DNA of 64,000 nucleotides from Prolixibacteraceae bacterium (GTDB taxonomy: Bacteria > Bacteroidota > Bacteroidia > Bacteroidales > Prolixibacteraceae). A program made the position numbers and the translations under genes. The notes below the pieces were generated by a model that made no database searches, was not told where the DNA came from, and was given only the letters and a program-made list of their open reading frames with translations. The DNA is taken from the NCBI GenBank assembly GCA_963662895.1, contig OY759982.1:414884-478883 (forward strand), written 5' to 3'. Positions 28,928-54,182 of the stretch are shown here, one piece after another. The first letter of the stretch is position 1. Every line of letters begins with the position of its first letter.

Positions 28928-29001
28928 GGTCCCATAGTTCAATGGATAGAATATCAGATTCCGGTTCTGACGATCTGGGTTCGAATCCCGGTGGGATCAC
29001 C
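28928..29001 (+). tRNA. tRNA-Arg (anticodon CCG)
   Basis: Manual fold. Acceptor GGTCCCA/TGGGATC, D-arm GTTC...GAAT, anticodon arm TCAGA-TTCCGGT-TCTGA (anticodon CCG), T-arm CTGGG-TTCGAAT-CCCGG. Discriminator A, then CC. Confidence 0.85.
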
Positions 29002-29176
29002 TTACAAAATCAAAAGCCTCGTAATTATAGGTATTACGGGGCTTTTGTGTGTTCGATATGAATGCTAAATATATTTTAGAAATAAGTAAAGTATTGTAAT
29101 ACAATTAATTAACTATTAGAGTGCCTTAAGGTTAAATAATTGTACAACAATTAAAAAACACTTTATAAAAAATAAC

Positions 29177-30757
29177 TTATAAAGACTCGATTTCAATCCT
29201 TAGAAACCTGATTGTTCCATTTTTAAACCATCCCGGAAAATTTTTAATAAGGGCTGAATTTACCATAATTGCCCCGCCTACATTTAATTGGCAATCCACT
29301 GGATTGCAATTTTCAACGATGTATGTTTTTTCTTTTTCACTATGCAGTTTTTTATGCGAGCCAGGAATAACTTGCAAAGCAAACTCTTTTGATTTTGGTT
29401 GTGAAAGCAGAACAACTAATTCAAGTTTTTTCAAATCCCCGGACTGCTTAAATTCCAGAAACTGCTCCGGTATTTTCTCGTAATAAGTAACAGTATTTAT
29501 GGAGTATTGACCTGCCAACTGTGTAAGAATTTTCTCTACTGAAGGTATCAATAAAATAGAACTTACATTTTTCTCTATCCCTAAATCGATGATTTTGGGT
29601 TTACCAGGAGTATTGTCTAATGAATTGTTTTTATATAATGCCAGACTCAATTGGTTTATACTTCGCCTGGAATAAAGTTGGTTAACCGTACAAAATCCGT
29701 TTTTAAAATATTTCTTACCTAAGGAAACAATTCCTTTCTCATTAATCGAGGTATTGTATAGTTCAAGTGCATTATTGAGTCTATCTGTAATGTTTGTACG
29801 CAAACGATCAGGTGCCAGAACAACAATACCGTCGCCCAGTCCCAGTATTTCCTTTTCCAATTCAAAATTGAGCTGCACTTCCAGTGAAATAGTAACCCCG
29901 TATTCATTTTCGTCTATTAATTTTTGCGACGAGTGGAAGGGTTTCGTTAGCACATAAGGCGCATGTTTGCGGGTAACGAACAGTACAATCTTCTCGGCCT
30001 TTGAACCATGATTTACCGTTACTCCAATCACGTTTTTGAAATACACGTCAGCGTCGAACCCCATTTCATCTGAAAAAATTCTTTCTGTGTTCTTAACTTC
30101 AATTATCCGGTCAATAGCAAGATTAAACAGTGGATGAGCATTGGTTTTTGAACCAATCAGGAACCAGCGGTTACGAAACTCTTTTAAAAGATAAGGATAA
30201 AACAAAAATGTACTTGCCTGCCTTGCCGTAAAAGACTGATAAGTGATTTCAAGAATATTCTTTCTATTGATAGCCTGATATAATTTTTCAAGAAATTCAA
30301 TTCCCTTCAAATCCTCATTTTTTTCAAAATCAATGACCGGCTTCCGGTTTACTTTCTGCGAATAGATATGGTCCTCAAGCTTTTGCACCATTGAATCCAG
30401 TTCCCTGAAATGAGAAAATCCTTTGAATTGTTTCAGAAAATCAACTGTTTCTGTTAGCTTATCCAGGTCTCCCTCAGAAAGCGGGATATTCATAATACTG
30501 TAGTCAGGATCTTCGTAGGTGTAATATTTCCGGTCTATAATTACGATTGGGGCATTGTATCCAAGCTTATCACTCCGCATTAACTGGATATCCATTTGAA
30601 CTGTTCTCCGGCTCACTCCTTTGTCAATACCCTCATATTCATACAAAGCATCGGAACAGGCATCAATTAAATCTTCCAAAGTCCATTTCCGATATCGGTT
30701 TTGTAAGCACAAATCAATGGTTTTGTAGCGAATAAGCGCATTTCGGTTGACTGGCAT
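29177..30757 (-). CDS. WYL-domain transcriptional regulator (wHTH + WYL) with a ~200-aa C-terminal extension
   Basis: N-terminal YafY-like HTH (GVSRRTVQMDIQLMRS). WYL signature region NRWFLIGSKTNAHPLFNLAIDRIIEV. The protein is unusually long (526 aa). Confidence 0.6.
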   Translation of the reverse strand: MPVNRNALIRYKTIDLCLQNRYRKWTLEDLIDACSDALYEYEGIDKGVSRRTVQMDIQLMRSDKLGYNAPIVIIDRKYYTYEDPDYSIMNIPLSEGDLDKLTETVDFLKQFKGFSHFRELDSMVQKLEDHIYSQKVNRKPVIDFEKNEDLKGIEFLEKLYQAINRKNILEITYQSFTARQASTFLFYPYLLKEFRNRWFLIGSKTNAHPLFNLAIDRIIEVKNTERIFSDEMGFDADVYFKNVIGVTVNHGSKAEKIVLFVTRKHAPYVLTKPFHSSQKLIDENEYGVTISLEVQLNFELEKEILGLGDGIVVLAPDRLRTNITDRLNNALELYNTSINEKGIVSLGKKYFKNGFCTVNQLYSRRSINQLSLALYKNNSLDNTPGKPKIIDLGIEKNVSSILLIPSVEKILTQLAGQYSINTVTYYEKIPEQFLEFKQSGDLKKLELVVLLSQPKSKEFALQVIPGSHKKLHSEKEKTYIVENCNPVDCQLNVGGAIMVNSALIKNFPGWFKNGTIRFLRIEIESL

Positions 30758-31450
30758 AAACTTTTTTCAATAAAAATATACACTTTCTTTTATCTGCGCA
30801 AAAAGATTGCGCAGTAGTAATTAACCTTTGTCCCATCAATTATGACAAAACGTTCTTTGAACCATTACAATATTGTGCAACTGGCACTAAAAATCTTCCT
30901 GAAAAAGAAGCATGGTAAAAAGCTGAAGGTATAAGCCCTGACAGGAGTTTCTGTATAGCTCCGTAGTGCGGCATTTGTTTCGAATGACCGTATGCTGCTT
31001 TGTCCAAGGTTGTTTTGCCACAACTTGTGTGTTGGGGGTTCGAATCCTCCTCCCAAATACGGGATAACTCAAAAGGTAGAGTAACAAGACCACCTCAGAA
31101 CTGCGTCTGGTAAACGCAACGGACTGTAAATCCAGCCAAAAAGAAGTCGGGCCCTTCTTTAAAAAAGCCTACCGAAAGTTGTGCCGGGAAAACCCGCCGC
31201 CCAGTTCATTTTAGATGAACAGGTGGCAGTTTTAAAGTGCCTGAGAGAAAGACAAAACCGATAACAACATTTGCTTTCCGGTTAAGCAACTTCATCAACG
31301 GACTTGGTTATAAACTCCTGATGCGGTCCCTGACCCAAAACCGAATGTTCACTTTCGAGGGATATCTTGCTTTCCGCTACGGAGAAATGGTTTTCCCCGC
31401 ACACTTTCCAAAAAGTGTAAACATTTTAACAAACATAAAAAAAACACGAC

Positions 31451-32551
31451 ATGAAAAGAATTAGAATCAACAAAGGAACAATCGGATTAGTATTCCGAAA
31501 AGGCGACTACAAACGTATCTTAACTGAAGGAATTCATTGGTTGGGAATCAATGAAAAGGTAACAGTTTATAATCTGGCTAAACCTTTCACTCCGGAAGTT
31601 GAACTGAACCTTTTGTTGGAAGATGCCGAACTGGCAAACCGTTTAAATGTAGTTGAAGTAAAAGACAATGAAATAGCCCTTCAATATATTGAAGAAAACT
31701 TCAAAAACGTACTGACACCGGGAAGATATGCCTTTTGGAAAGGAGTAACCAATTACTCATTCATAAAAGCAGACTTAAGCAAGATTGAAATTTCAGAAGA
31801 TATCCCGATGCAATTGTTACACAAACCGGAAGTGTTGCAGTATGTAAGGGTTTATGTAGTTGAATCCTATGAAAAAGGAGTTTTGATAATAAACGGAAAA
31901 ACTGATAAGGTTTTGGAAAAAGGAGTTTATTACTTCTGGAAAAATCCAATCCCAATTTCTGTAGTCAAGACCGATTTACGGCAACTGCAAATGGAAATCT
32001 CCGGTCAGGAAATCCTGACCAAAGATAAAGCTGCTTTGCGTGTGAATTTCTTTGTCCGCTACAAAACGGTTGATATCGACAAGGCTTTGTTTGAAAACAA
32101 AGAATTCGACAAGCAACTTTACGTGATGGTGCAACTGGCAATTCGCGAATTTATCGGAATGAATACCTTGGATGAATTGCTTGAACGCAAAACATCAATT
32201 TCAGAGTCGATACTTGAGACAATTGCCGCAAAAGCTGGCGAAATTGGTGTGGAAATTTTGGGTTGCGGAATTCGTGATATTATTTTACCCGGCGAGGTCA
32301 AAGATATCATGAACCAGGTACTGGTAGCAGAGAAAAAGGCTCAGGCCAACATCATTACCCGAAGGGAAGAAACAGCTTCGACCCGGAGTTTGCTGAACAC
32401 GGCCAAACTCATGGAAGAAAATACAATGCTGTTCAAACTGAAGGAAATGGAATACTTGGAAAAGATTACTGAAAAGGTAAACAACATCTCACTTTCCGGT
32501 GGTGGCCTTGTTTTAGACCAGTTGAAAGGATTGTTTGTTTCCCAAAAGTAA
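31451..32551 (+). CDS. SPFH/band-7 (stomatin/prohibitin-like) domain protein
   Basis: Band-7 core (LTKDKAALRVNFFVRYKTVD...ELLERKTSISESI...GVEILGCGIRDIILPGEV) followed by a coiled-coil tail. Confidence 0.7.
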   Translation: MKRIRINKGTIGLVFRKGDYKRILTEGIHWLGINEKVTVYNLAKPFTPEVELNLLLEDAELANRLNVVEVKDNEIALQYIEENFKNVLTPGRYAFWKGVTNYSFIKADLSKIEISEDIPMQLLHKPEVLQYVRVYVVESYEKGVLIINGKTDKVLEKGVYYFWKNPIPISVVKTDLRQLQMEISGQEILTKDKAALRVNFFVRYKTVDIDKALFENKEFDKQLYVMVQLAIREFIGMNTLDELLERKTSISESILETIAAKAGEIGVEILGCGIRDIILPGEVKDIMNQVLVAEKKAQANIITRREETASTRSLLNTAKLMEENTMLFKLKEMEYLEKITEKVNNISLSGGGLVLDQLKGLFVSQK

Positions 32552-32567
32552 AAACGTTATTTTTTAA

Positions 32568-33749
32568 TTGACAATTATGAAACAAGTAATATCAGAGGGA
32601 TGCAGAGTCCCGATAAAAATGTGGGTGAGCGATATTGAAGAGAATGCGTTGGCACAGGCCCGAAACCTGGCAAACCTTCCTTTTATTTTTAAACATGTCG
32701 CTTTAATGCCTGATTGTCATTCTGGTTACGGAATGCCTATCGGTGGGGTTATTGCCACCCAAGGTGTGATTATCCCCAACGCGGTTGGAGTTGACATTGG
32801 ATGCGGCATGTGTGCAGTTAAAACATCGCTGAATGAAATCAACACAGATGTACTGAAAACAGTCATGTCAGGAATTCGTGAATTGGTGCCATTGGGTTTT
32901 GACCATCATAAACAGGCTCAGGATGAAAGTCTGATGCCTTCAGTTGAAAATGTGCCTGAGCTAGGGATTGTTCGACGGCAATATACAGCAGCCAAAAAAC
33001 AAATTGGTACATTAGGTGGAGGTAATCACTTTATTGAAATACAGAAAGGTTCTGATGGACATATCTGGATAATGATTCATTCCGGGAGTCGGAATATAGG
33101 AATGAAAGTGGCCGAACACTATAACAAAGTGGCCATTCATCTTAACGAACGCTGGCATTCGTCTGTCGATAAAAAGCAAGACCTTGCATTCTTGCCCATA
33201 GAAACTCAGGAAGCAAAGGACTACTTTGCAGAAATGCAGTATTGTGTCGATTTTGCCTTTGCCAATCGATTGCTAATGATGGAGCGCATCAAATCGGTAT
33301 TTACATCAGTTATTGGCGAGAACTTTTCTGCCCTCGAATTTATCAACATCGCCCATAACTATGCCCGTTGGGAATCACATTTTGGCACCAATGTTATTGT
33401 ACACCGAAAAGGAGCTACCAGCGCCCGAGAGGGAGAAGTAGGTATTATTCCTGGCTCGCAGGGAACAAAAAGTTATATCGTTATGGGAAAAAGAAATACT
33501 GAAAGCTTTCAAAGTTGTTCGCACGGGGCCGGACGTACAATGGGCAGAAAACAAGCCCAACGTGAATTGGTGTTGGAGGAAGAAATTGAAAAACTCAATA
33601 ACAAAGGAATTGTCCATTCCATCCGCAATACACGCGACCTGGATGAAGCTCCCGGAGCTTACAAAAACATCGATGTTGTGATGGGAAACCAAGCTGATTT
33701 GGTCGATGTTCTGGTAGAATTAAGCCCGTTGGCAGTGATTAAGGGATAA
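32568..33749 (+). CDS. rtcB: RNA-splicing ligase RtcB
   Basis: Metal-binding and GMP-His region motifs MPDCHSGYG, GGGNHFIEIQ, HSGSRNIG, AHNYA and SCSHGAGR. Confidence 0.9.
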   Translation: MTIMKQVISEGCRVPIKMWVSDIEENALAQARNLANLPFIFKHVALMPDCHSGYGMPIGGVIATQGVIIPNAVGVDIGCGMCAVKTSLNEINTDVLKTVMSGIRELVPLGFDHHKQAQDESLMPSVENVPELGIVRRQYTAAKKQIGTLGGGNHFIEIQKGSDGHIWIMIHSGSRNIGMKVAEHYNKVAIHLNERWHSSVDKKQDLAFLPIETQEAKDYFAEMQYCVDFAFANRLLMMERIKSVFTSVIGENFSALEFINIAHNYARWESHFGTNVIVHRKGATSAREGEVGIIPGSQGTKSYIVMGKRNTESFQSCSHGAGRTMGRKQAQRELVLEEEIEKLNNKGIVHSIRNTRDLDEAPGAYKNIDVVMGNQADLVDVLVELSPLAVIKG

Positions 33750-34107
33750 TATTGTACTTTTGTTAGTTCCAGATGATTGCTATCTATCTTTGTTCATTTA
33801 GTGAGTTTGCATGTGCTTCCACCTTGGGCGGATTTAGCAGGATTGCTAGTTTCGATTAAAGACGTTATCTATAACGTGGGAATATTATTTATTAACCTTA
33901 AAAATGGACTGTGTATGAAAACAAATATAATGAAATCAATATATAAAGCTAAGCTGGTGTGGAACATGGTGGACTAAAACAGACACACTTGCAGGACAAA
34001 GAGAACCATAATAGGAGCATATGTTCCACCACCAGTTTTCATTTATAAATTAATCCGTTTCATTAAACTAAGATGTCTCCCAAAAGTTTTAACTCAGTTA
34101 TAAAATG

Positions 34108-34135
34108 GTTCGAATTTTGTCCCGGTGGGATCACT
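34108..34135 (+). repeat. attR-like direct repeat of the tRNA-Arg 3' end (T-loop + acceptor 3' strand, 5-nt insertion)
   Basis: ggttcgaat-tttgt-cccggtgggatcac versus tRNA ggttcgaat-cccggtgggatcac. Confidence 0.5.
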
Positions 34136-34177
34136 AAAAGCCTCTAATTATTTAACAATTAGAGGCTTTTGATTTTT
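34136..34177 (+). terminator. Strong hairpin terminator (14-bp stem AAAAGCCTCTAATT / AATTAGAGGCTTTT, 7-nt loop, T-tract), potentially bidirectional
   Basis: Perfect inverted repeat with A-tract upstream and TTTTGATTTTT downstream. Confidence 0.6.
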
Positions 34178-34700
34178 ACTGTCCTCAAACCGGACGGGCT
34201 GATTCTTTTTCCCTCCAGTTGGGAAAAGGATCCAAAAAGAGCCGCCGCTGAGGAGAAAAAACTAAAAAATCTTCCAAATTCCTCTCTGCGTTCGTCAAAC
34301 AGGAAGATTTTTTAACGCTCACTCCATCGATTTTCAACGAGATTTCACCCCATACCCCTAAAGGGGCAACTCGTTGAAAATCACCACGCCCTTTAGGGAT
34401 GGGGTTCCTGGTGATTTTCATTAGTAATACTTTCGCTTCTCGAACATTAAAGTGAAGTAATATGCAACACGAAGACGATATGATTGACCAAATTTTTGAA
34501 CGGCATTGCCGACGACAAAATGATATAAACCTTACTTTTGTAAATATGCGGAGAATAATTTTTTAAACAGATAAAATATCAACCATCTTTGCAAAAGATA
34601 TTTATCCTGAATATTTTTGTTCACATAAAGCTATTTCGGGTCAATTATACTGCCATTCGGTATTCCTGTTTAAAGCTCACTATAAAAAAATTTAACAGAG

Positions 34701-35747
34701 ATGGTTAATTCTAAGTTTCAGGGACTGTTGAAAAATCCGTTAAAAGTATTTTTTTTGTTGGGGACATTAACGGCTGGTATTGGGGCAATTATTGATATAA
34801 TAAAAATGTATACGGTACATGAAATGTTTAGTGTATATGTGGATATATTTTATTTAATCTCTTTTACCGTGAGTGTTATCATATATGTCAGGAATAAAAG
34901 CAATATCCGTTTGTCATCGGTAATTTTTATTTCTACGTTGGTGTCGGGCTTTGTAATAACTAATATATTCCTGCATGTTAATCACATGCGGCCATACTCA
35001 TTTTTACAGGATACTACATTTTATATAATGATAATAACGGTTACCGGAGCTTTTTTCCCCGGTATATACGTTATTATACTTGATATTATTTACTGTATTA
35101 CTCTTATATCACTGTGGTTTTTATCAGGAGATAAACTCGGAGATATAAATATTCTGTTTTTGCTTATTGTCATGACAGGCTATTCATGTGCGATTGTATT
35201 GTTTCCTAAAAAATTAAGAAATGCATTTACAGAAAACGAAGAACTTCATGCCCTGGTTGCCCGAAAGGATAAAGAACTGCTGGAGAAAGAAAACCTAAGG
35301 ATAGCCGGGGAAGTGAAGCTGTTACAGGAAACCGTTGATATTAAAAACCGTGAATTGGTAAGCCGGGCTCTGATTTTGACCGGACACAAGGAAAAAAACG
35401 CCCGTTTGGCAAAACAACTTAAAAAGATTGAAACCAACCAGACAGAGGAATTAAATAACATAATACACGGTCTGCAAACAGAAGATACCGCCTATTGGAA
35501 AGAATTCCGGGTAAGGTTTAATGATGTACACAAAGACTTTTATACGAATATTAAAGCCGATTTCCCCAATCTCACCACAGGGGAAATAAAACTCGCTGCT
35601 TTTATTAAATTAAAACTTTCGTCAAAAGAAATAGCCATTCTTACCAACACAACCAAAGCCGGGATAAATGTGTCCCGCTCCCGCCTCAGGAAGAAACTAA
35701 AAATGGATAACAAGAATAATTTCGTTGACTTCCTGGATAAATATTAA
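34701..35747 (+). CDS. Membrane-anchored LuxR/GerE-type HTH regulator (5 predicted TM helices + coiled coil + C-terminal HTH)
   Basis: N-terminal hydrophobic helices and a coiled-coil middle. The C-terminal LTTGEIKLAAFIKLKLSSKEIAILTNTTKAGINVSRSRLRKKL matches the LuxR-type HTH pattern. Confidence 0.55.
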   Translation: MVNSKFQGLLKNPLKVFFLLGTLTAGIGAIIDIIKMYTVHEMFSVYVDIFYLISFTVSVIIYVRNKSNIRLSSVIFISTLVSGFVITNIFLHVNHMRPYSFLQDTTFYIMIITVTGAFFPGIYVIILDIIYCITLISLWFLSGDKLGDINILFLLIVMTGYSCAIVLFPKKLRNAFTENEELHALVARKDKELLEKENLRIAGEVKLLQETVDIKNRELVSRALILTGHKEKNARLAKQLKKIETNQTEELNNIIHGLQTEDTAYWKEFRVRFNDVHKDFYTNIKADFPNLTTGEIKLAAFIKLKLSSKEIAILTNTTKAGINVSRSRLRKKLKMDNKNNFVDFLDKY

Positions 35748-35765
35748 CCTGCTTTTTCTCCTGGG

Positions 35766-35802
35766 TCCCTCTCCTGTGAGGAGCTGTGAAGAGAGGCTTT
35801 TT
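35766..35802 (+). terminator. Terminator-like GC-rich hairpin (CCTCTC...GAGAGG) followed by CTTTTTT
   Basis: Inverted repeat plus T-tract directly after the LuxR-like gene's stop. Confidence 0.4.
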
Positions 35803-36106
35803 ATACTTCCAAAAAACTTTTCAATGCTAATCATTTGCTAAGGTGTATTTTTTTGTAAGAAAAAACATCACCCTTACTTTAGCTCCTGTTCTGTTGAATA
35901 TACGTGTTATGCACCGGTTGGATTGTCAATAGAGATGCTTCACTCCGCATGACAAAAAAAAATTGACATGACAGATTTAATTCTTTGACCCAATCAGTTG
36001 CAAAAAACTATTTGATTATACAACTATCAGGCTCAAAGCAATTGACACGACACTAAGGTATTTTGAAACAAATAAAAAACGAAACAGAAAATATAAAAAC
36101 ATACAA

Positions 36107-39100
36107 ATGAACTACAATAACAAACCTGTAGAAACTATAAAGTCCCCTTCAGAGAATCGAAGACCAGCGTTAGCTAATTTAGGGGTAGAACAAGCAGTAA
36201 CCCAAACTCCCCCCCTTAGGGGGTTAGGGGGTATTATTTTACTGTTCCTATGCAGCATTTTTACTCTGCACGCACAAACAGTCACCGCACCTTCCGGCAG
36301 CGGAACAGAAGGCGACCCCTACCAAATTGCCGCACTTGATAATTTGTACTGGTTGTCGCAGACTTCTTCTGCCTGGGGCAGCTATTTTATCCAGACAGCC
36401 GACATCAATGCCTCTGCAACAACCGGATGGAACTCCGGCAGCGGCTTTTCGCCCATTGGCAATAGTACAACAAACTTCACCGGGCATTACAACGGTGCCG
36501 GGCATACCATCACCGGGCTGTACATCAGCCGCTCTTCAACAGACTATGTCGGGCTGTTTGGAGATACCGACAATGCGAAAATCGACAGCCTCGGCGTCGT
36601 AAACTGCGACATTTCGGGAGATGATTGTGTCGGCGGTCTTGTGGGGAGACAATATAAATCTACGGTGAACAACAGCTACAGCACCGGTGGCGTTTCGGGG
36701 GATACTTCTGTTGGTGGCCTGGTGGGGAGGCATCAATACACCACGATAAACAACAGCTACAGCACGGGTAGCGTTTCGGGAGATGATTGTGTCGGCGGTC
36801 TTGTGGGGGAAAATTTCTGGGGTTGCACGGTGAGCAGCAGCTACAGTGTCGGCAGCGTATCAGGTGTTACGAATGTCGGCGGCCTGGTGGGGGAAGATAA
36901 TGGTGACTGCACGGTGAGCAATTGTTACTGGAATACCGAAACCAGCGGGCAAATTTCAAGTACCGGGGGTATCGGATTAACCACCGCCCAAATGAAACAG
37001 CAAAGCAGTTTCAGCAACTGGGATTTTGATGCTAACTGGGAAATAACCAACGGGAAAACCTTTCCCCGCTTACGCGATGTGTACGATTACCCGATGCTTT
37101 TGCCAAAGCCAACCGCAATAGCACAAAAAGGGGCCTTGTACACCGACACCCCGGCAGTACCGATGGATTATGAAATACAGCTTACCTTAAAAGATTATCC
37201 CACGGGCATGACAGTGCAAAACGGTTCCATCATCACCTGGACACCGGAAAGTGCCGGCACATATACCTTTACCGTACAAGTTGAAGACACGGAAGGGAAA
37301 ATCACAGAATGTACCTACACAATTATAGTCATTGCTTTCCCGGGTGCAGGTGCCGGAACAAAAGAAAACCCTTTTGAAATAGCCACGCTTGAAGACTTAC
37401 AATTCCTTTCGGAAAACAGCGATGGTCTCTGGAACGGTAATTTCTATTTTATCCAGACAGCCGGTATTGATGCCTCCGCAACAACCGGATGGAACGAAGG
37501 CAGCGGCTTTTCACCCATTGGCAATAGTACAACAAATTTCACCGGGCATTACAACGGTGCCGGGCATACCATCACCGGGCTGTACATCAGCCGCTCTTCA
37601 ACAGACTATGTCGGGCTGTTTGGCTATACCAACAACGCGGGAATTGACAGCCTCGGTATTATCAATTGCAATGTTACGGGAAATGCGTATGCCGGCGGCC
37701 TGGTGGGGAATTGTTATTACTCGGAAGTAAACAACTGCTACGCCACCGGTACCGTAACAGGTGCAGGCAGTGTAAGCGGGGCAGGGAGCAAGGCAGGCGG
37801 CCTGGCAGGATGCAGCTCATCCTCGGAAATAAGTAACAGTTATGCATCCGTTACCGTAACCGGTGTGGGCGATTACGTAGGCGGCCTGGTGGGGCACAAT
37901 TACGAAGCAACAGAAAGTAACTGCTATGCCACCGGCAGCGTGACAGGGGAAGGCAATTATACCGGCGGCCTGGTGGGGCGCAGTACCGATTCCGAAGTGA
38001 ACTATTGTTATTCCACCGGCCTTGTAACCGGTTCCGGCAGCTCCGTTGGCGGCCTGGTGGGCGACAATTACCCCTATCTTGGCACTTCCACTGTAAACAA
38101 TTGTTACTGGGACACCCAAACCAGCGGGCAAAGCACAGGCGACGGCGGTACCGGCCTGACCACTGCCCAAATGAAACAGCAAAACAATTTCAGCGGCTGG
38201 GATTTTGACAATACCTGGGAAATAACCAACGGGAAAACCTTTCCCCGCTTGCGCAATGTGTACGATTACCCGGTAATTCTTCCAATAGCAACAGTCGCAC
38301 AAAGAGGCACCCTGTACACCGATACCATACAGATAGTATCTATGGATTATGAAATACAGTCTGTTACGCTGGCAGATAACCCTGAAGGTATGCTATTGCA
38401 AAACGGTTCTGTCATTACCTGGACAGCGCCGGACAACATCGGTACATGTACCTTTACCGTACGGGCCGAAGACACGGAAGGGGCAACCGTGGAATACAGC
38501 TATACAATTAAAGTTATCATTAGTGGTGAGGGAACAAACGGGAACCCATATGAAATTGCCACCCTTGAAGATTTAAAATTTCTTTCGGAAAACAGCGCTT
38601 ACTGGGGCAGCTATTTTATCCAGACAGCCGATATCGATGCCTCTGCAACAACGGAATGGAACGGCGGCAGCGGCTTTTCTCCCATCGGGAATAGTACAAC
38701 AAACTTTACCGGGCATTATAACGGCGCCGGGCATATTATCAGCAATTTATACATCAACCGTCCATCCACGGATAACATCGGTTTGTTCGGTTATACCAAC
38801 GGTGCTGAAATCGACAGCCTCGGTATTGCTGATTGCAATATCACAGGGAAATCTTATACCGGAGGCTTAACAGGAAGAGATAACAATTCTGCCATTACAA
38901 ACAGTTATGTAGCGGGAACGGTGTCAGGAACAGATCAGGTTGGCGGGCTAATAGGATATACGGAAAATACAACCATTACCAACAGTTATGCAACAGGAAC
39001 GGTATCGGGTAATAATTATGTTGGCGGTTTGACCGGACAGAACAGGGTTTCTTCAACCATTACCAACTGCTATTCCGCCGCAAATGTATCGGGACATAGT

Positions 39101-42100
39101 GTGACCGGCGGCCTGGTGGGGTATAATGTTGCATCATCGGCCATCAGTAATAGTTACGCCACCGGCAGTGTTTTAGGGTCAGGTAGTAAAATAGGCGGCT
39201 TGGTGGGGCATAATAACTCCTCTACTGTCAGCAACTGCTATTATAACAGCGAAACCAGCGGGCAAAGTAATGGGATTGGCGATGACAACAACAGCCAGTT
39301 CGTAACCGGTTTGACCACGGCCCAAATGAAACAGCAAAACAGTTTTAGCGGATGGGATTTTGATAATACCTGGGAAATAACCAATGGGAAAACCTTTCCC
39401 CGCTTGCGCAATGTGTACGATTACCCGGTAATTTTGTCAAAAGCAACAATCACAATACAAAAAGGTGTCCTCTACAGTACCATACCGGCAGTACAGATGG
39501 ATTATGAAATACAGCTTACCTTAACAGACTATCCTGCGGGTATGGTAGTTCAGGACGATTCCCTTATTATCTGGACACCGGGCAACACAGGTACCTACAC
39601 CTTTACCGTACGGGTTGAAGACACCGAAGGGGCAACAACAGAATGCAGTTATACAATTAAAGTCATCTATTTCCCGACGGCAGGTGCCGGGACAAAAGAA
39701 AACCCTTTTGAAATAGCAACACTTGAAGACTTACAATTTCTTTCGGAAAACAGCGATGATTTCTGGAACGGTAATTTCTATTTTATCCAGACAGCCGGTA
39801 TTGATGCCTCCGCAACAACCGGATGGAACGGCGGCAGCGGCTTTTCTCCCATCGGGAATAGTACAACAAACTTTACCGGGCATTATAACGGCGCCGGGCA
39901 TACCATCACCGGTTTGTATATTAACAGTCCTTCAACCGATGTCGGACTGTTTGGCTATACCAACGGGGCTGTGATCGACAGCCTCGGTATTGCTAATTGC
40001 GATATTACGGGAGATTCGGGAAATAAAAATGTCGGAGGCCTGGTGGGATATACTCTCTCCTCGGAAGTGAATAACTGCTATGTAACCGGCTATGTAACCG
40101 GGGCAGGAATCAGTACCGGTGGCCTGACAGGGTGCAACAAATCCTCTGAAATGAATAACTGTTATACTGCCGTTATTGTAACCGGGGCAAATGAATACGT
40201 TGGCGGCCTGGTGGGGCACAACTCCAACGCAACGGAAAACAACTGCTATGCTACCGGCAACGTAACAGGCTCAGACGGTTATACCGGCGGTTTAGTGGGG
40301 CGCAGTACCGATTCTGAGGTAAATAACTGCTATGCTACCGGCCAGGTAACCGGTTCCGGGAGTTCCGTTGGTGGCTTGGTGGGGAATAATTATAATTTCT
40401 CAGGAGCTTCGACGATAAATAGCAGCTATTATAACAGTGAAACCAGCGGGCAAAGCAATGGGATTGGCGGGGACAACAATAGCCAGAGTGTAACCGGACT
40501 GACCACTGCCGAAATGAAGCAGCAAAACAATTTTAGCGGCTGGGATTTTGACAATACCTGGGAAATAACCAACGGGAAAACCTTTCCCCGCTTGCGCAAT
40601 GTGTACGATTACCCGATGCTTTTGCCAAAGCCAACCGCAATAGCACAAAAAGGGGCCTTGTACACCGACACCCCGGCAGTACCGATGGATTATGAAATAC
40701 AGCTTACCTTAAAAGATTATCCCACGGGCATGACAGTGCAAAACGGTTCCATCATCACCTGGACACCGGAAAGTGCCGGCACATATACCTTTACCGTACA
40801 AGTTGAAGACACGGAAGGGGCAAAAACCGCAGAATGTACCTACACAATTATAGTCATTGCTTTCCCGGGTGCAGGTGCCGGAACAAAAGAAAACCCTTTT
40901 GAAATAGCCACGCTTGAAGACTTACAATTCCTTTCGGAAAACAGCGATGGTTTCTGGAACGGTAATTTCTATTTTATCCAGACAGCCGGTATTGATGCCT
41001 CCGCAACAACCGGATGGAACGAAGGCAGCGGCTTTTCACCCATTGGCAATAGTACAACAAACTTCACCGGGCATTATAACGGCGCCGGGCATACCATTAC
41101 CGGGCTGTACATTAATCGTCCATCCACGAATAACATCGGACTGTTTGGCTATACCAACGGGGCTGTAATCGACAGCCTCGGTATTGCTAATTGCGATATT
41201 ACGGGAGATTCGGGAAATAAAAATGTCGGAGGCCTGGTGGGATATACTCTCTCCTCGGAAGTGAATAACTGCTATGTAACCGGCTATGTAACCGGGGCAG
41301 GAATCAGTACCGGTGGCCTGACAGGGTGCAACAAATCCTCTGAAATGAATAACTGTTATACTGCCGTTATTGTAACCGGGGCAAATGAATACGTTGGCGG
41401 CCTGGTGGGGCACAACTCCAACGCAACGGAAAACAACTGCTATGCTACCGGCAACGTAACAGGCTCAGACGGTTATACCGGCGGTTTAGTGGGGCGCAGT
41501 ACCGATTCTGAGGTAAATAACTGCTATGCTACCGGCCAGGTAACCGGTTCCGGGAGTTCCGTTGGTGGCTTGGTGGGGAATAATTATAATTTCTCAGGAG
41601 TTTCGACGATAAATAGCAGCTATTATAACAGTGAAACCAGCGGGCAAAGCAATGGGATTGGCGGGGACAACAATAGCCAGAGTGTAACCGGACTGACCAC
41701 TGCCGAAATGAAACAGCAAAACAGTTTCAGCAACTGGGATTTTGATAATACCTGGGAAATAACCAACGGGAAAACCTTTCCCCGTTTGCGCAATGTGTAC
41801 GATTACCCGGTGATTTTGTCAAAAGCACCGGTCACAATACAAAAAGGCGCCCTTTACACCGGTACCATACCGGCAGTACCCATGGATTATGAAATACAGC
41901 TTATCTTAACAGATTCCCCTGAGGGGATGGTAGTTCAGGACGATTCCCTTATTATCTGGACACCGGGCAATACAGGTACCTACACCTTTACCGTACGGGT
42001 TGAAGACACAGAAGGGGCAAAAACCGCAGAATGCACCTATACAATTAAAGTCATCTATTTTCCGACGGCAGGTGCCGGGACAAAAGAAAACCCTTTTGAA

Positions 42101-45100
42101 ATAGCCACGCTTGAAGACTTACAATTTCTTTCGGAAAACAGTGATATATGGGACAAATACTTTATCCAGACAGCCGACATCAATGCCTCCGCAACAACCG
42201 GATGGAACTCCGGCAGCGGCTTTTCTCCCATTGGCAATAGTACAACAAACTTCACCGGGCATTACAACGGCGCCGGGTATATCATCAGCAATTTATACAT
42301 TAACCGTCCCTCGACAAATCGTATTGGCCTGTTCGGATATACCAGCGGTGCAGTAATCGATAGCCTTGGTATTGCTAATTGTGATATCACGGGAGGTGAT
42401 TATCATGTTGGAGGCCTGGTAGGGTATAATTATTCCTCACAGGTAAATAACTGCTACGTTACTGGTAGCATATCCGGCTCAGGCTATTACGTTGGTGGCC
42501 TGCTGGGAACCAATACAGCTTCCTCTGCAGTGGGCTACTGTTATTCCACAGGCAGTGTAAGAGTGTCGCATAGGTATGTAGGTGGCCTGATAGGGTACAA
42601 TAATTTCTCAACAGTAAACTACTGTTATAGCGCGGGCAGTATAACAGGTGCAAGTGCCGGTGGCCTGCTGGGCTACAATTCCGGCACTGTAATCAATTGT
42701 TATTATAACAGCGAAACCAGCGGGCAAAGTAATGGGATTGGCGATGACAACAACAGCCAGTTTGTAACCGGTTTGACCATTGCCCAAATGAAACAGCAAA
42801 GCAGTTTTAGCGGATGGGATTTTACAACCACTTGGGCTATACGGAAAGATAGTACCTATGCTGCTCTGCAGGGGATCAACAATGCCCCTTTTGCTTTTTC
42901 TGACATTGTAGAAGTATCCGTTGGAGATGTGCTGCTCCTTGACACAGTATTGCTAGCCAACGACTGCGATTACGAAACCGGGCAAGCTGCACTTATATAT
43001 AAAATAATAAGCGCAACCTCTGATAACTGTACTATAAACGGCAATATCTATACGTTTAACAATGAAGCAGCAATTGGTTCTTCTGAAACAATAATGTACC
43101 ATGCCGGTGAATTACTGGCTCCGGGTGATACGCTGTGGGGCAATGTCGCCCGGGCAGTACTAAATATCACTACGCCTTCCGGCAACGGGACAGAAAATGA
43201 TCCCTACCAAATTGCCACGCTTAACCATCTTGGCTGGCTCTCTCAGACAAACAGCGCCTGGAACAAATATTTCATCCAAACAGCCGATATTGATGCCTCG
43301 GAAACAACGGAATGGGACACAGGCAGCGGTTTTTCGCCCATCGGCAACCAGACAACGAACTTCACCGGGCAGTATAACGGCAAAGGGCATACCATCACAG
43401 GGCTGTACATCAACCGTCCGTCAACCGATTATACCGGGCTGTTCGGACACACCTCCAATGGCACAGTAATCGACAGCCTTGGAATTGCGAATTGCGATAT
43501 TACGGGAAATTCCCGTGTTGGCGGCCTGGTAGGGCTCAGTTATACCTCCTGTACAATAAGCAACTGCTATGTCACCGGTAGCGTAACAGGCTCAGTCAAT
43601 TACGTTGGCGGCCTGGCAGGGTACAATTACGAAGCAACGGTAAGCAACAGCCATGCCATATGCAGTGTAACGGGCAGTTCTTATGTCGGTGGCCTGGTGG
43701 GGCACAATTACCCCTCTTCGACAATAAGCTATAGCTATGCCACCGGCAGTGTAACCGGCTCGGGCGAAAAAACCGGCGGCCTGGCGGGGTGCAATAAATC
43801 CTCGGAGATAAATAACTGCTACGCCACAGGCAGTGTAGCAGGAGCACACGATTATGTTGGGGGACTGGTGGGGCACAATTACGAAGCAACAGAAAGCAAC
43901 TGCTATGCCACCGGCAGCGTGACAGGGGAAGGCAGTTATACCGGCGGCCTGGTGGGGCGCAGTACCGATTCCCGGGTAAACTATTGTTATTCCACCGGCC
44001 TTGTAACCGGTTCCGGCAGCTCCGTTGGCGGCCTGGTGGGCGACAATTACCCTTATCTTGGCACCTCCACGGTAAGCAGTTGTTACTGGGATACCCAAAC
44101 CAGCGGGCAAAGTTCAAGCGATGGCGGTACTGGTTTAACCACCGCCCAAATGAAACAACAGGCACAACTGGTTGGGTTCGATTTTACAACCACCTGGGCA
44201 ATACGCGAAGACAATACCTATGCCGCCATGCAGGGGCTTAACAACGCACCCATTGCCTTTGCCGACAGCATAGTAGTATATGGCGGCGTTTTACAACTCG
44301 ACACAATGTTAACCAACGATTATGATTATGAAACCGGGCAAAGCTCACTTGTATATCAAATAATAAGCGCTGCCTCGAACAATGGCAGCATAAACGGAAA
44401 TGTCTTCATATTTAGTAGTAGTGCACTTATTGGTTCAACCGATACAATCGTGTACCGTGCAGGTGAAATCCTGGCCCCGGGCGATACCCTGTGGGGCAAC
44501 ACGGCACAGGCTGTGTTATATTACAGACCTTATGAAATAACCACGCTTGAAGATTTAAAACTTCTTTCAGAAAACAGCGTTTACTGGGATAAGTGTTTTA
44601 TCCAGACCACCGATATCGATGCCTCCGCAACAACCGGATGGAACTCCGGCAGCGGCTTTTCTCCCATCGGGAATAGTACAACAAACTTTACCGGGCATTA
44701 TAACGGCGCCGGGCATACCATCACCGGTTTGTATATTAACAGTCCTTCAACCGATGTCGGACTGTTTGGCTATACCAACGGGGCTGTGATCGACAGCCTC
44801 GGTATTGCTAATTGCGATATTACGGGAGATTCGGGAAATAAAAATGTCGGAGGCCTGGTGGGATATACTCTCTCCTCGGAAGTGAATAACTGCTATGTAA
44901 CCGGCTATGTAACCGGGGCAGGAATCAGTACCGGTGGCCTGACAGGGTGCAACAAATCCTCTGAAATGAATAACTGTTATACTGCCGTTATTGTAACCGG
45001 GGCAAATGAATACGTTGGCGGCCTGGTGGGGCACAACTCCAACGCAACGGAAAACAACTGCTATGCTACCGGCAACGTAACAGGCTCAGACGGTTATACC

Positions 45101-52639: not shown

Positions 52640-52729
52640 AGTTATCATCAGTTTTTCAAAAGGATAGTAATGATGAAACATGAATTTATATCAAGTACTA
52701 AATATTAAGAATCTGAAATCAAGTTTATT

Positions 52730-52906
52730 ATGAAGACAAAAGAAAAAAGAACATATCAAAACCCCGAAATCACTAAAGTCGAAATCGACAACCAGATATC
52801 AATGGTAATGATGTCGGATACAAATCCGTATGGCGACCCGTGGTCGTTGGCTGAAGAACGGCAAGAAAACAAAGCAAATAATCCGTATAAAATTTCTCAG
52901 GGGTAA
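52730..52906 (+). CDS. Candidate 58-aa RiPP precursor peptide (MKTKEKRTYQNPEITKVEIDNQISMVMMSDTNPYGDPWSLAEERQENKANNPYKISQG)
   Basis: Short hydrophilic ORF, below the track's 60-aa cut-off, lying immediately upstream and co-directional with the PqqD-like and kinase genes. Contains three N-P-[E/Y] motifs. Confidence 0.35.
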   Translation: MKTKEKRTYQNPEITKVEIDNQISMVMMSDTNPYGDPWSLAEERQENKANNPYKISQG

Positions 52907-53035
52907 CACAAACATTATACATGTAAAATACACAGGTTGATTTTTGAATAAGATTCGATTAATTGTCAGAAGTCGGAAGTCTGAAGTTCGTTAAAAAATC
53001 ATCTTTTGCCGTCGTTAATTATTTTTTGTTTTATT

Positions 53036-53317
53036 ATGATTTTAAAAAGAATAGCTCAAAAGAAAAATTTATTTGCACAAAGTACCGTTGGAAAGGAAAC
53101 CATCTTAGTGCCTTTACGGGATTCAGTGGCAAATATGAACGAAATGGTTACGCTTAACGAACCGGGTTCTTTTATTTGGGATAAAATAACAATATCATCA
53201 ACCATTGAATCTCTAACAAAAGAAGTGGTGGATAATTTTGAAGTTGACGAACAAACCGCCAAAACCGACATAAACAGCTTCGTGCAAAAATTATATCAAT
53301 TTACAGAAACGGTTTAA
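53036..53317 (+). CDS. PqqD-family peptide chaperone (RiPP recognition element)
   Basis: ILVPLRD...NEMVTLNEPGSFIWDKI...SLTKEVVDNFEVDEQTAKTDINSFVQKL matches the PqqD/RRE pattern. Length ~93 aa from ATG 53036. Confidence 0.6.
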   Translation: MILKRIAQKKNLFAQSTVGKETILVPLRDSVANMNEMVTLNEPGSFIWDKITISSTIESLTKEVVDNFEVDEQTAKTDINSFVQKLYQFTETV

Positions 53318-53318
53318 T

Positions 53319-54182
53319 ATGTCTGGATCTAACACTACTGCTGTAAAAACCGGGGAGTTTATATTTAAGATTCAATCTGAATTCCAAATTGCTTTCGATA
53401 TCGGTTATTTTTCATTTGTAACAACTGATTTTGATGTTCCTGATGTTACACTGCAAGTAGAACAACTATCAAAAGAACATATTCGACCTGTTGTTTTTAT
53501 TTTTGAGGCTGTTGAGCAAGGTATCCCTTTATGGAAGGTAAGCAGAACAACAAATGGTTATCGACTGTTCATTTATAATCAACTTCAAAAAGGAGTAATA
53601 CAGGCAGTAATTGATGTTCCTCACGGATCAAACATCTGGCAGGTATATTGCCTTCCTGATGAGCAGGGTAATGTTGAGCCAATGGCATATCCCGCCGGAG
53701 CGTTGTTGTTATACATGCTGGCAATACGTAACAATGCTTTTATGCAACACGCATCGGCAGTTATAAGCAATGGCAATGCTTTTGTTTTTTCAGGATTTTC
53801 AGGAATTGGAAAGAGCACAATGGTTTCGATATGGCAGGAAACGGGCTATACTGTTATAAACGATGACCGAATTCTTATTCGTCAAAACAACAAAGGCTTT
53901 ACGGTTTACAATACGCCAATGTTCTACGACGATAAGCCCAAACAAGCACCTTTATCGGCTATTTTTTTATTACAACAGAGTTGTGAGAATTATATAAAAA
54001 GACTAAAAGGGGTGACTGCAATAACAAATTTTATGCGTTTTTCTATTCAGCATGCATACGATAAACATTTTTTAAATGCTCATTTGCAGTTAGTTCAGGA
54101 TATTTATAAAACAGTGCCTATATTTGAATTGGGCTTTAAACCCGATGTATCAGTTATTGATTTTATTCATACTAACTTGTAA
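53319..54182 (+). CDS. HPr kinase/phosphorylase C-domain-like protein (RiPP/lasso-peptide kinase-like)
   Basis: P-loop FSGFSGIGKST in the C-terminal half. ~287 aa, similar in size to lasso-peptide Ser-kinases. Confidence 0.6.
   Translation: MSGSNTTAVKTGEFIFKIQSEFQIAFDIGYFSFVTTDFDVPDVTLQVEQLSKEHIRPVVFIFEAVEQGIPLWKVSRTTNGYRLFIYNQLQKGVIQAVIDVPHGSNIWQVYCLPDEQGNVEPMAYPAGALLLYMLAIRNNAFMQHASAVISNGNAFVFSGFSGIGKSTMVSIWQETGYTVINDDRILIRQNNKGFTVYNTPMFYDDKPKQAPLSAIFLLQQSCENYIKRLKGVTAITNFMRFSIQHAYDKHFLNAHLQLVQDIYKTVPIFELGFKPDVSVIDFIHTNL

What the first reader, a model, noticed from the sequence alone, without database searches (positions are those of the whole stretch)
28928..34135. tRNA-Arg(CCG) followed by a 5.1-kb integrase-less islet bounded by a direct repeat of the tRNA 3' end
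The last 15 nt of the tRNA (tcccggtgggatcac) recur exactly at 34121-34135. They are preceded there by the T-loop segment ggttcgaat with a 5-nt insertion. This is the classic attL/attR signature of site-specific integration into a tRNA gene. The enclosed cargo is a WYL regulator, an SPFH protein and RtcB. No integrase gene is present, which suggests a decayed or satellite-type element or a recombination scar. A strong hairpin terminator sits immediately after attR.
Basis: seen in the sequence. Interest (0 to 1): 0.65.

Follow-up and report, generated by a model that had tools for sequence, protein, structure and literature searches.

The report
Integrase-less RNA-repair islet at tRNA-Arg
A 5.1-kb block of RNA-repair genes sits just after a tRNA-Arg gene and ends in a displaced copy of that tRNA's 3' end, the usual scar of site-specific insertion; it has no integrase and looks like an ordinary decayed island inside a larger strain-variable hot spot.

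Summary
tRNA-Arg(CCG) lies at 28928-29000. Its 15-nt 3' end recurs exactly at 34120-34134, preceded by GGTTCGAA plus a 5-nt insertion and followed by a strong terminator. The repeat extends further than reported, because the terminators after both copies are also related.

The enclosed DNA is a conserved cassette: a WYL regulator, a roughly 500-nt structured leader with a Y-RNA-like tRNA mimic, an SPFH/Band-7 protein and RtcB. This kind of RNA-repair system is already described.

The cassette occurs at 92% nucleotide identity in another genome with no tRNA or tRNA fragment. There, and in a soil contig, it sits next to MobC/relaxase genes.

A conspecific genome (99.3-99.8% identical flanks) has the same tRNA but only 282 nt in place of window 29001-58224. 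The left breakpoint is exactly the tRNA end. The variable unit is therefore 29.2 kb, not 5.1 kb, and I found no precise empty site for the islet. The reconstructed empty junction does exist in Roseimarinus sediminis.

No integrase was found among the ORFs scanned. Best reading: a decayed, CIME-like remnant of tyrosine-integrase insertion at a tRNA-Arg hot spot. This is a new member of a known kind and of modest interest.

The parts
28928..29000 (+). Intact tRNA-Arg(CCG), the regenerated integration target (attL side)
   Evidence: ARAGORN and Rfam at 62 bits. The sequence is identical in the conspecific genome L015, which lacks the islet.
28986..29000 (+). Core repeat copy 1, TCCCGGTGGGATCAC (3' T-stem plus acceptor 3' strand)
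   Evidence: Homology between the window and L015 stops exactly at 29000.
29001..29176 (.). Left arm: AT-rich DNA unique to this locus. It holds a bidirectional hairpin terminator at 29014-29049 that would serve both the tRNA and the convergent WYL gene.
   Evidence: Not shared with the cassette homologue L002: 61% identity over the 37 window bases compared, which is background level. The terminator is similar to the one after the second repeat copy.
29177..30757 (-). WYL-WCX transcription regulator, 526 aa, with a degenerate C-terminal PhyH-like domain
   Evidence: Pfam WYL 2.6e-10 and WCX 1.1e-8; PADLOC WYL 3e-24. There are more than 7800 homologues, many with PF05721. The HxD (WHQD) segment is deleted in this clade.
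30794..30814 (.). Perfect palindrome CTGCGCAA-AAAGA-TTGCGCAG between the divergent genes. Inferred to be the regulator's operator.
   Evidence: The arms are invariant in 4 loci, down to 64% regulator identity, with one change in the central spacer in L006. Binding by the regulator is inference.
30925..31405 (+). Conserved structured leader or ncRNA upstream of the SPFH gene. It has a Y-RNA-like (YrlA-like) tRNA-mimic core at 31026-31087.
   Evidence: Rfam YrlA hit at 29.3 bits, E = 0.003, below the gathering score of 69. The same hit occurs in L002, L006 and L010 at 30-36 bits. RNAalifold finds 11 pairs with compensatory changes. A long-range helix pairs 31180-31194 with 31389-31403 (I12). The IGR is 92.4% identical to L002, as conserved as the coding genes.
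31451..32551 (+). SPFH/Band-7 protein, 366 aa
   Evidence: Pfam Band_7 1.5e-33. Substitutions against L002 are biased to third codon positions: 11/1/44.
32577..33749 (+). RtcB RNA ligase (390 aa from the ATG; 393 aa from the TTG at 32568)
   Evidence: Pfam RtcB 2.5e-114. The homologue in L002 is called at 390 aa.
33750..34040 (+). Conserved cassette tail ending in a long-stem terminator (about 33950-34040). The 66-codon ORF at 33777-33977 is probably not coding.
   Evidence: 92% identical to L002, with homology ending near 34040. ORF66 substitutions fall 1/4/2 by codon position, so there is no third-position bias. The hairpin is shown.
34041..34106 (.). Right arm: DNA unique to this locus, between the cassette end and the tRNA fragment
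   Evidence: 51% identity to L002, which is background level. No match in any fetched locus.
34107..34134 (+). Displaced tRNA-Arg 3' fragment (attR): GGTTCGAA + TTTTG insertion + TCCCGGTGGGATCAC
   Evidence: Neither ARAGORN nor Rfam calls it as a tRNA.
34135..34171 (+). Terminator abutting the fragment. Inferred to be the original tRNA-Arg terminator.
   Evidence: 15-pair hairpin. It has the same type and spacing as the terminator after tRNA-Arg in Roseimarinus sediminis.
29001..58224 (.). Whole strain-specific segment relative to a conspecific genome. It comprises the islet, a 348-aa LuxR-like protein, a 5510-aa GLUG/He_PIG protein, a 287-aa HprK-related protein, an S24-ABC protein and an NTP_transf_5 protein.
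   Evidence: L015 is 99.3-99.8% identical on both sides but has 282 unrelated nt in this position. There is no tRNA fragment at the right breakpoint.

Best explanation
The 15-nt repeat, with its imperfect extensions, is an attL/attR pair left by tyrosine-integrase-type recombination between an incoming element's attP and the 3' end of the chromosomal tRNA-Arg(CCG) gene.

The element carried its own copy of the tRNA 3' end and a similar terminator. Integration therefore regenerated an intact tRNA at 28928-29000. It pushed the original 3' end and its terminator to 34107-34171.

What remains of the element is only its cargo, with no integration or transfer genes. It is a decayed, CIME-like islet that cannot move by itself.

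The cargo is a self-contained Band-7/RtcB RNA-repair cassette:
- a WYL regulator, divergently transcribed from a palindromic operator;
- a long structured leader with a Y-RNA-like tRNA mimic;
- an SPFH protein;
- the RtcB 3'-phosphate/5'-OH RNA ligase;
- its own terminator.

The same cassette travels elsewhere as cargo next to MobC/relaxase modules of mobilizable elements. The islet is the most recent layer of a 29.2-kb strain-variable hot spot anchored on the tRNA-Arg 3' end.

Shown: the repeats, the cassette boundaries, the presence/absence polymorphism and the lack of an integrase. Inferred: the integrase mechanism, the loss of the int/mob genes and the cassette's function.
For: 1. Geometry: an intact tRNA, plus a same-strand 3' fragment 5.1 kb downstream. 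No other fragment exists in 64 kb.

2. Mosaic pattern: identity is 15/15 in the core, with indels and about 75% identity on either side. If the neighbouring roughly 75% identity applied uniformly, 15/15 would have a probability of about 0.013 (my calculation). This favours two copies of different origin joined by a crossover in the core, rather than a duplication made in place and then diverged.

3. The reconstructed attB (tRNA end directly followed by TAAAAGCC...) exists exactly in Roseimarinus sediminis. There the same tRNA carries a terminator of the same type.

4. Three different sequences abut the same tRNA end in this species: the window's left arm, the window's post-fragment terminator, and L015. 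The window/L015 homology break falls exactly at base 29000.

5. The cassette is a discrete transferable unit. It is 92.3% identical in nucleotides to TARA scaffold L002 over 29202-34034 only, with unrelated flanks and no tRNA. It is 77% identical in L006, within a defence-gene neighbourhood. In L002 and L012 it lies within a few kb of MobC/relaxase.

6. The 90%-identity cluster of the regulator has 28 members, including Draconibacterium sediminis. The flanking HD gene's cluster has 3 members, and its next relative is at 79%. This hints at horizontal spread.

7. Other Prolixibacteraceae-like genomes carry alternative defence cargo after the same tRNA: type I R-M in L016, OLD-TOPRIM/UvrD in L017.
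Against: No integrase, excisionase or relaxase, and no recognisable remnant of one, lies in the islet, in the 29.2-kb segment, or among the ORFs scanned across about 13.5-64 kb of the window.

No genome was found with a precise empty site for the 5.1-kb unit. The only conspecific comparison differs by 29.2 kb against 282 nt, with no repeat at the right breakpoint.

The Roseimarinus match is to a distant relative. Its HD protein is only 36% identical and its right flank is not syntenic. Part of the 8-nt extension could reflect a common terminator design.

Similarity extending into the terminators is unusual for a minimal att core.

None of the cassette homologues examined is flanked by tRNA fragments. 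No donor element with a matching attP was seen.
Confidence: 0.6

Rival explanations
1. The att-bounded slot is older than its present cargo. The fragment was left by a different, earlier island at tRNA-Arg. The RNA-repair cassette reached the slot later, by homologous or illegitimate replacement of that island's interior. The repeats would then say nothing about how this cassette arrived.
For: The cassette's homology with L002 stops at gene and terminator boundaries, 176 nt and 67 nt inside the repeats. The arms are therefore not part of the conserved cassette. The tRNA flank is clearly a multi-event hot spot: 29.2 kb against 282 nt in conspecifics, and different cargo in L016 and L017.
Against: No remnant of any other island gene lies between the repeats. 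Coding and conserved RNA sequence fill the slot. This explanation needs an extra event.
Confidence: 0.2
2. Non-integrase origin. A local duplication of the tRNA 3' third plus terminator arose during illegitimate insertion of foreign DNA, and the two copies then diverged.
For: The similarity extends beyond the tRNA end into the terminator, giving a repeat of about 70 nt with three indels. No integrase is present.
Against: The core is perfect (15/15) next to flanks at about 75% identity with indels. Meanwhile the surrounding chromosome is 99.3-99.8% identical between strains that differ for the insertion. A recent duplication made in place should give near-identical copies. Target duplications of about 70 nt are not typical of illegitimate insertion (established knowledge).
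Confidence: 0.1
3. The fragment is a functional tRNA-like 3' element of the RtcB operon transcript, for example a decoy or ligand related to the 'band-7-associated tRNA'. Alternatively, the adjacent tRNA-Arg is itself that cassette-associated tRNA.
For: Band-7/RtcB systems are reported to include tRNA-like RNAs (Burroughs and Aravind 2016, as summarised in bioRxiv 10.1101/312249). The fragment lies between the operon and the final terminator.
Against: Cassette homologues at 92%, 77% and lower identity lack both the fragment and any tRNA. The same tRNA-Arg is present, base for base, in a conspecific genome without the cassette, and in L001, L016 and L017. The cassette has its own terminator upstream of the fragment. 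Its tRNA-like RNA lies in the leader instead.
Confidence: 0.03
4. The 15-mer is a chance match.
For: None beyond the short length of the exact core.
Against: With up to 2 mismatches allowed, shuffles give about 0.09 expected matches in 64 kb, and an exact match is far rarer. The copies share strand and order. The adjacent T-loop 8-mer and the related terminator extend the match.
Confidence: 0.01

Closest known systems
tDNA-integrated genomic islands as defined by Islander (Hudson, Lau and Williams; PMC4383910)
   Same: The tRNA gene is regenerated at one end. A displaced 3' fragment of the same tRNA lies in direct orientation at the other end. The identity block runs from the T-loop region to the tRNA 3' end. 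The insertion is strain-variable.
   Different: There is no tyrosine integrase inside, which is a required Islander filter. At 5.1 kb the islet is small. The fragment carries a 5-nt insertion. No precise empty-site allele was found.
CIMEs, cis-mobilizable elements: decayed ICEs or IMEs that keep attL and attR but have lost integration and transfer genes (Guedon et al. 2017, PMC5704250)
   Same: The islet is att-flanked with no integrase or relaxase. It lies at the 3' end of a tRNA gene in a region that looks like successive accretion. Close relatives of the cargo sit beside MobC/relaxase modules (L002, L012).
   Different: CIMEs are documented mainly in Firmicutes and Streptomyces. Descent from an IME is inferred here, not shown. 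Mobilization in cis is untested.
Band-7/RtcB RNA-repair systems with a tRNA-like RNA (b7a-tRNA or YrlA), predicted by Burroughs and Aravind 2016 (NAR 44:8525; not held, cited via bioRxiv 10.1101/312249)
   Same: RtcB is adjacent to a Band-7/SPFH protein, with a tRNA-like ncRNA. The YrlA-next-to-Band-7 variant is mentioned explicitly.
   Different: The RNA here scores far below the Rfam YrlA threshold and is embedded in a leader of about 500 nt. The regulator is a WYL-WCX protein with a degenerate PhyH-like domain. There is no Rsr/Ro60 and no RtcA.
rsr-yrlBA-rtcBA operon of Salmonella, controlled by the CARF-domain activator RtcR that senses damaged tRNA (Hughes et al. 2020, PMC7790460)
   Same: RtcB is paired with a Y-RNA-type tRNA mimic, under a dedicated regulator with a ligand-sensing domain. 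WYL and CARF were described together as sensor domains in PMC4012209.
   Different: The regulator family differs (WYL HTH rather than a sigma-54 bEBP). There is no Rsr and no RtcA, and an SPFH partner is present. The ligand is unknown.
NBU-type mobilizable elements of Bacteroides, which integrate into tRNA 3' ends (from my own knowledge, not checked here)
   Same: Same phylum and the same target type (a tRNA 3' end). The cassette's relatives have MobC/relaxase neighbours.
   Different: NBU elements encode their own integrase and mobilization protein. This islet has neither.

Membership tests
tDNA genomic island (Islander definition) | Intact tRNA gene at one boundary | tested here: met
   tRNA-Arg(CCG) at 28928-29000. 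It is identical to the copy in the islet-free conspecific genome.
tDNA genomic island (Islander definition) | Displaced fragment of the same tRNA, on the correct side and in the correct orientation | tested here: met
   A 3' fragment at 34107-34134, downstream and on the same strand.
tDNA genomic island (Islander definition) | Tyrosine integrase gene inside the island | tested here: not met
   Pfam finds only WYL/WCX, Band_7 and RtcB, and the small ORFs have no hit. None appeared in the rest of the 29.2-kb segment or its flanks.
tDNA genomic island (Islander definition) | Presence/absence polymorphism with a precise empty site | tested here: inconclusive
   The conspecific L015 lacks the islet, but it also lacks 24 kb more and has 282 unrelated nt. 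The reconstructed attB junction exists only in the distant Roseimarinus. The right-flank homologue locus L019 was uninformative.
CIME (cis-mobilizable element) | attL and attR retained | tested here: met
   The 15-nt exact cores are intact. This holds at sequence level only.
CIME (cis-mobilizable element) | No integration or transfer genes | tested here: met
CIME (cis-mobilizable element) | Derived from an ICE or IME by decay | tested here: inconclusive
   Cassette relatives lie beside MobC/relaxase in L002 and L012. No remnant of such genes is present here.
CIME (cis-mobilizable element) | Excises or transfers when a related element integrates alongside | not testable with these tools
   Needs an experiment.
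Band-7/RtcB RNA-repair system | RtcB ligase adjacent to a Band-7/SPFH protein | tested here: met
   The pairing is conserved in L002, L006 and L010.
Band-7/RtcB RNA-repair system | Associated tRNA-like ncRNA | tested here: met
   A YrlA-like core is conserved in 4 loci with compensatory changes. The evidence is computational only.
Rfam YrlA (RF02553) | Score at or above the gathering threshold (69 bits) | tested here: not met
   29.3 bits in the window and 30-36 bits in relatives. It resembles YrlA's tRNA-like module but is not a formal member.
Rfam YrlA (RF02553) | Encoded next to Rsr (Ro60) | tested here: not met
   No TROVE/Ro gene was found in the window ORFs scanned or listed in the related loci.
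Phage satellite (PICI/P4-like) | Integrase, replication and packaging-hijack genes, with a phage association | tested here: not met
   No such genes were found. There are no relatives in the viral contigs or the phage collection.

The most novel reading that the evidence does not exclude
The islet is not dead DNA. It would be a minimal att-flanked cargo unit (a CIME) still moved in cis or in trans by tRNA-Arg-specific integrases of Bacteroidota mobilizable elements. Band-7/RtcB RNA-repair cassettes would then circulate between genomes as integrase-less hitchhikers, which would explain why the same cassette appears beside MobC/relaxase modules elsewhere.
Probability: 0.2. Interest if true: 0.45.

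Novelty: new member of a known kind. Interest (0 to 1): 0.3.

Why it matters
This is a clean, well-delimited example of how a tRNA 3' end serves as a landing pad for successive layers of accessory DNA in Prolixibacteraceae. It also shows a known but uncharacterised RNA-repair module (WYL regulator, tRNA-mimic RNA, SPFH, RtcB) behaving as transferable cargo.

Its main practical value is as a pointer. The cassette, with its invariant operator palindrome and its long structured leader carrying a Y-RNA-like domain, is a tractable system for asking two questions: what WYL regulators sense, and what tRNA mimics do for RtcB.

The integration scar itself adds little that is new.

Tried and rejected
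- Exact look-ups of the window's own RtcB (two starts), WYL and HD proteins were all 'not on record'. The source genome could therefore not be fetched, although 100%-identical HD and 348-aa proteins exist on a 3.98-Mb contig.
- A metagenome scan with the HD protein gave one locus, L009, at 73% identity. It has no tRNA-Arg nearby and was uninformative.
- The right-flank 348-aa protein's 66% homologue locus, L019, has no tRNA and was uninformative.
- I searched for the attR-type and attL-type junctions in viral contigs, looking for a possible attP or donor. There were no matches.
- I looked for the cassette in plasmids, phages and viral contigs. Only short RtcB or WYL fragments at about 70% identity turned up.
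- I looked for a third tRNA fragment at the right end of the 29.2-kb segment and found none.
- I looked for tRNA-end repeats after tRNA-Arg in L001, L015, L016 and L017 and found none within 10 kb.
- I looked for att-like direct repeats around the cassette in L002 and L012. The only find was a 22-nt match between two coding regions.
- The idea that tRNA-Arg is the 'b7a-tRNA' of the cassette is rejected. The tRNA is present without the cassette, and the cassette without the tRNA.
- The idea that ORF66 is a gene is doubtful. There is no third-position bias and no family hit.
- Folding the cassette tail as a whole gave no significant signal, z = -0.6.
- The Burroughs and Aravind 2016 paper could not be read because it is not held.

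Full report
**Observation**

ARAGORN and Rfam both call one tRNA in the window, tRNA-Arg(CCG) at 28928-29000/29001 on the + strand. The 15-mer TCCCGGTGGGATCAC occurs exactly twice, at 28986-29000 and 34120-34134, both on the + strand. Allowing two mismatches, dinucleotide shuffles give 0.09 matches expected.

The second copy is preceded by GGTTCGAA and a 5-nt insertion (TTTTG), so the tRNA-derived piece spans 34107-34134. It is followed at once by a 15-pair terminator hairpin at 34135-34171. A sliding alignment of the tRNA's last 45 nt against the whole window finds no third fragment.

The repeat is longer than reported. The hairpin terminators after each copy (29014-29049 and 34136-34171) are significantly alike. 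Their alignment scores 32, against 12.5 +/- 2.1 for shuffles, with 0 of 2000 reaching it (I1). The copy after the intact tRNA has about ten extra bases (CTTACAAAATC against T) between the tRNA end and the hairpin.

**What lies between the repeats**

Pfam confirms the three genes:
- a WYL+WCX regulator, 29177-30757 (-);
- an SPFH/Band-7 protein, 31451-32551 (+);
- RtcB, 32577-33749 (+).

No ORF in the islet has a recombinase domain. The same holds for the rest of the region up to 64 kb and for the left flank back to about 13.5 kb.

The 694-nt divergent intergenic region is not empty. Rfam gives a sub-threshold YrlA (Y-RNA-like) hit at 31026-31087: 29.3 bits, E = 0.003, against a gathering score of 69. 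The hit covers the tRNA-like module.

The same hit appears at the same place in three related loci at 30-36 bits, and in L010 it spans the full model. RNAalifold on the four sequences predicts a large structure in which 11 pairs carry compensatory changes. These include the T-arm, the closing stem and flanking helices.

A perfect palindrome, CTGCGCAA-AAAGA-TTGCGCAG (30794-30814), has invariant arms in all four loci, with one change in the central spacer in L006. I infer that it is the regulator's operator.

Against L002, the intergenic region (92.4%) and the 290-nt tail after RtcB (92.2%) are as conserved as the genes. Substitutions in the genes are strongly biased to third positions. The 66-codon ORF in the tail shows no such bias (1/4/2) and is probably not coding. 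The tail ends in a long-stem terminator near 34040.

This architecture matches a published prediction. RtcB next to a Band-7 protein and a tRNA-like RNA (b7a-tRNA, occasionally YrlA) was predicted by Burroughs and Aravind 2016. I could read that work only through its summary in bioRxiv 10.1101/312249 (searches failed).

**Is the cassette a movable unit?**

The regulator family is very large in Bacteroidota, with more than 7800 hits, many carrying a C-terminal PhyH domain. Five contexts were recovered.

| Locus | Source | Regulator identity | Cassette content | Neighbourhood |
|---|---|---|---|---|
| L002 | TARA marine scaffold | 93% aa | Full cassette, 92.3% nt identical over window 29202-34034 only | Unrelated flanks: a NACHT giant gene on one side; HTH_17, MobC and relaxase on the other |
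| L006 | JGI | 78% aa | Full cassette | AAA_14/DUF4143, Arr-ms, HEPN/NTase and transposase genes |
| L010 | Prolixibacteraceae MAG | 64% aa | RtcB broken | Housekeeping genes |
| L012 | Soil | 74% aa | WYL plus RtcB, no SPFH | Next to a CBASS operon and MobC/relaxase |
| L014 | - | 54% aa | Regulator only | Next to a restriction-modification pair |

None of these loci contains a tRNA or the 15-mer.

Homology with L002 stops at the WYL stop codon and at the cassette's own terminator. That leaves 176 nt (29001-29176) and 66 nt (34041-34106) of locus-specific 'arms' inside the repeats.

The 90%-identity cluster of the regulator has 28 members, including Draconibacterium sediminis. The neighbouring HD gene's cluster has three members, and its next relative is at 79%. 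This is a rough sign that the cassette spreads horizontally. It has no relatives in the plasmid, phage or viral-contig collections.

**Empty-site tests**

- *Distant relative.* I searched all GTDB species genomes for the junction predicted if 29001-34134 were deleted: the tRNA 3' end followed directly by TAAAAGCC. There is one exact hit, in Roseimarinus sediminis. There tRNA-Arg(CCG) is followed directly by a terminator of the same type, TAAAAGCCTTATAATAATTTTATTGTAAGGCTTTT. The relative is distant, with an HD protein 36% identical and a non-syntenic right flank, so this supports the reconstruction but does not prove it.
- *Conspecific genome.* The HD protein next to the tRNA has a 99%-identical homologue on a 7.44-Mb contig, L015. 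L015 is 99.3-99.8% identical to the window on both sides: L015 9719-20795 matches window 29000-17661, and L015 3659-9436 matches window 64000-58223. It has the identical tRNA. Immediately after ...GGGATCAC it carries 282 unrelated nucleotides and then the ECF-sigma gene, which in the window lies at 58.2 kb. The polymorphic unit is therefore 29.2 kb (29001-58224). The left breakpoint is exactly the tRNA end, and no repeat marks the right breakpoint.
- *More distant relatives.* Genomes with an HD protein 75% identical (L016, L017) also have HD next to tRNA-Arg, followed by yet other DNA: type I R-M in one and OLD-TOPRIM/UvrD in the other.
- *Uninformative loci.* L009 and L019 added nothing.

No allele with the tRNA followed directly by the 348-aa gene was found.

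**Interpretation**

[quoted passage not shown] Two features favour a crossover between two DNAs of different origin over a duplication made in place. First, the core is perfect while its neighbours are about 75% identical with indels. Second, the strains that differ for the insertion are otherwise 99.3-99.8% identical.

On this reading the chromosome contributed the tRNA body and the post-fragment terminator, which is the Roseimarinus-like arrangement. The element contributed the imperfect T-loop piece, the 10-nt spacer and the left-arm terminator.

Because no integrase or transfer gene survives, the closest described category is a CIME. This is a decayed ICE or IME that keeps attL and attR, and is often found in tandem accretions at tRNA 3' ends (PMC5704250). 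The MobC/relaxase neighbours of the cassette in L002 and L012 fit that origin but do not prove it.

A serious alternative (about 0.2) is that the slot predates its present cargo. A local duplication (0.1), a functional tRNA-like 3' element (0.03) and chance (0.01) are less likely, for the reasons given under the rival explanations.

I also tested and rejected the idea that tRNA-Arg is itself the cassette's 'b7a-tRNA'. The tRNA exists unchanged without the cassette, and the cassette exists without the tRNA.

**How the cargo probably works** (inference from the named families)

- The WYL regulator binds the palindrome and controls the divergent operon in response to a nucleic-acid ligand. WYL was proposed as a sensor domain alongside CARF in PMC4012209. 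The CARF regulator RtcR senses damaged tRNA in PMC7790460.
- RtcB reseals RNAs cut to 3'-phosphate or 2',3'-cyclic-phosphate and 5'-OH ends.
- The tRNA-mimic leader and the SPFH protein act as cofactor, decoy or scaffold.

None of this was tested here.

**Verdict**

There is no support for a satellite. Both the scar and the cargo belong to kinds already described. Interest is 0.3: a new member of a known kind.

Noticed in passing
window 30925-31405 (core 31026-31087): A structured leader of about 500 nt lies upstream of the SPFH-RtcB operon. It contains a Y-RNA-like tRNA mimic (T-arm, short stem, D-arm) that scores well below the Rfam YrlA threshold. The element is conserved with compensatory changes in four loci that have no Rsr/Ro60. 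A second conserved hairpin, GGACTG-NN-AATCC (31120-31132), varies only in two loop positions between loci.
   Followed up: partly
window 30794-30814: A perfect palindrome, CTGCGCAA-AAAGA-TTGCGCAG, sits between the divergent WYL and SPFH genes. Its arms are invariant across regulators down to 64% identity. It is probably the WYL operator.
   Followed up: partly
window 29177-30757 (protein residues ~430-460): Distant homologues of the regulator carry a PhyH dioxygenase domain with a WHQD (HxD) motif. This clade (window, P0001, P0007, P0016) has deletions of about 33 aa in total that remove the motif, so the domain is probably catalytically dead.
   Followed up: partly
window 33750-34040: The tail after RtcB is 92% conserved with L002. 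Its 66-codon ORF shows no third-position bias. It may be a non-coding element, and it ends in a long-stem terminator.
   Followed up: partly
window 34135-58224: The rest of the strain-specific segment holds several genes: a 348-aa protein with a weak LuxR-type C-terminal HTH, a 5510-aa GLUG/He_PIG repeat protein, a 287-aa HprK-related/ScmC-like protein, a 730-aa Peptidase_S24-ABC fusion and an NTP_transf_5 protein. The last three look like a peptide-maturation or export set.
   Followed up: no
window 34180-34700: This is 520 nt of non-coding DNA with several nested perfect 13-nt inverted repeats (34263-34275/34302-34314 and 34329-34341/34370-34382). It has no Rfam match.
   Followed up: no
L016 1-9700 and L017 1-8860: Two related genomes share the tRNA-Arg/HD junction and a 537-aa unknown protein, then differ. 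One has a type I restriction HsdR. The other has an OLD-TOPRIM ATPase plus a UvrD helicase (Gabija-like). This is defence-gene swapping at the same tRNA.
   Followed up: no
L010 7556-8180: In a Prolixibacteraceae MAG the cassette's RtcB is split and truncated, while the SPFH gene, the regulator and the tRNA-like RNA stay intact.
   Followed up: no
L012 2783-11502: A WYL-RtcB pair without SPFH, and without the long leader, lies directly beside a CBASS operon (SMODS, E2-like, NUDIX) and MobC/relaxase on a soil contig.
   Followed up: no
L019 12007-17105: Next to a homologue of the 348-aa protein lie a bAvd gene and Lcl_C-domain proteins. This arrangement suggests a diversity-generating retroelement target set.
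   Followed up: no
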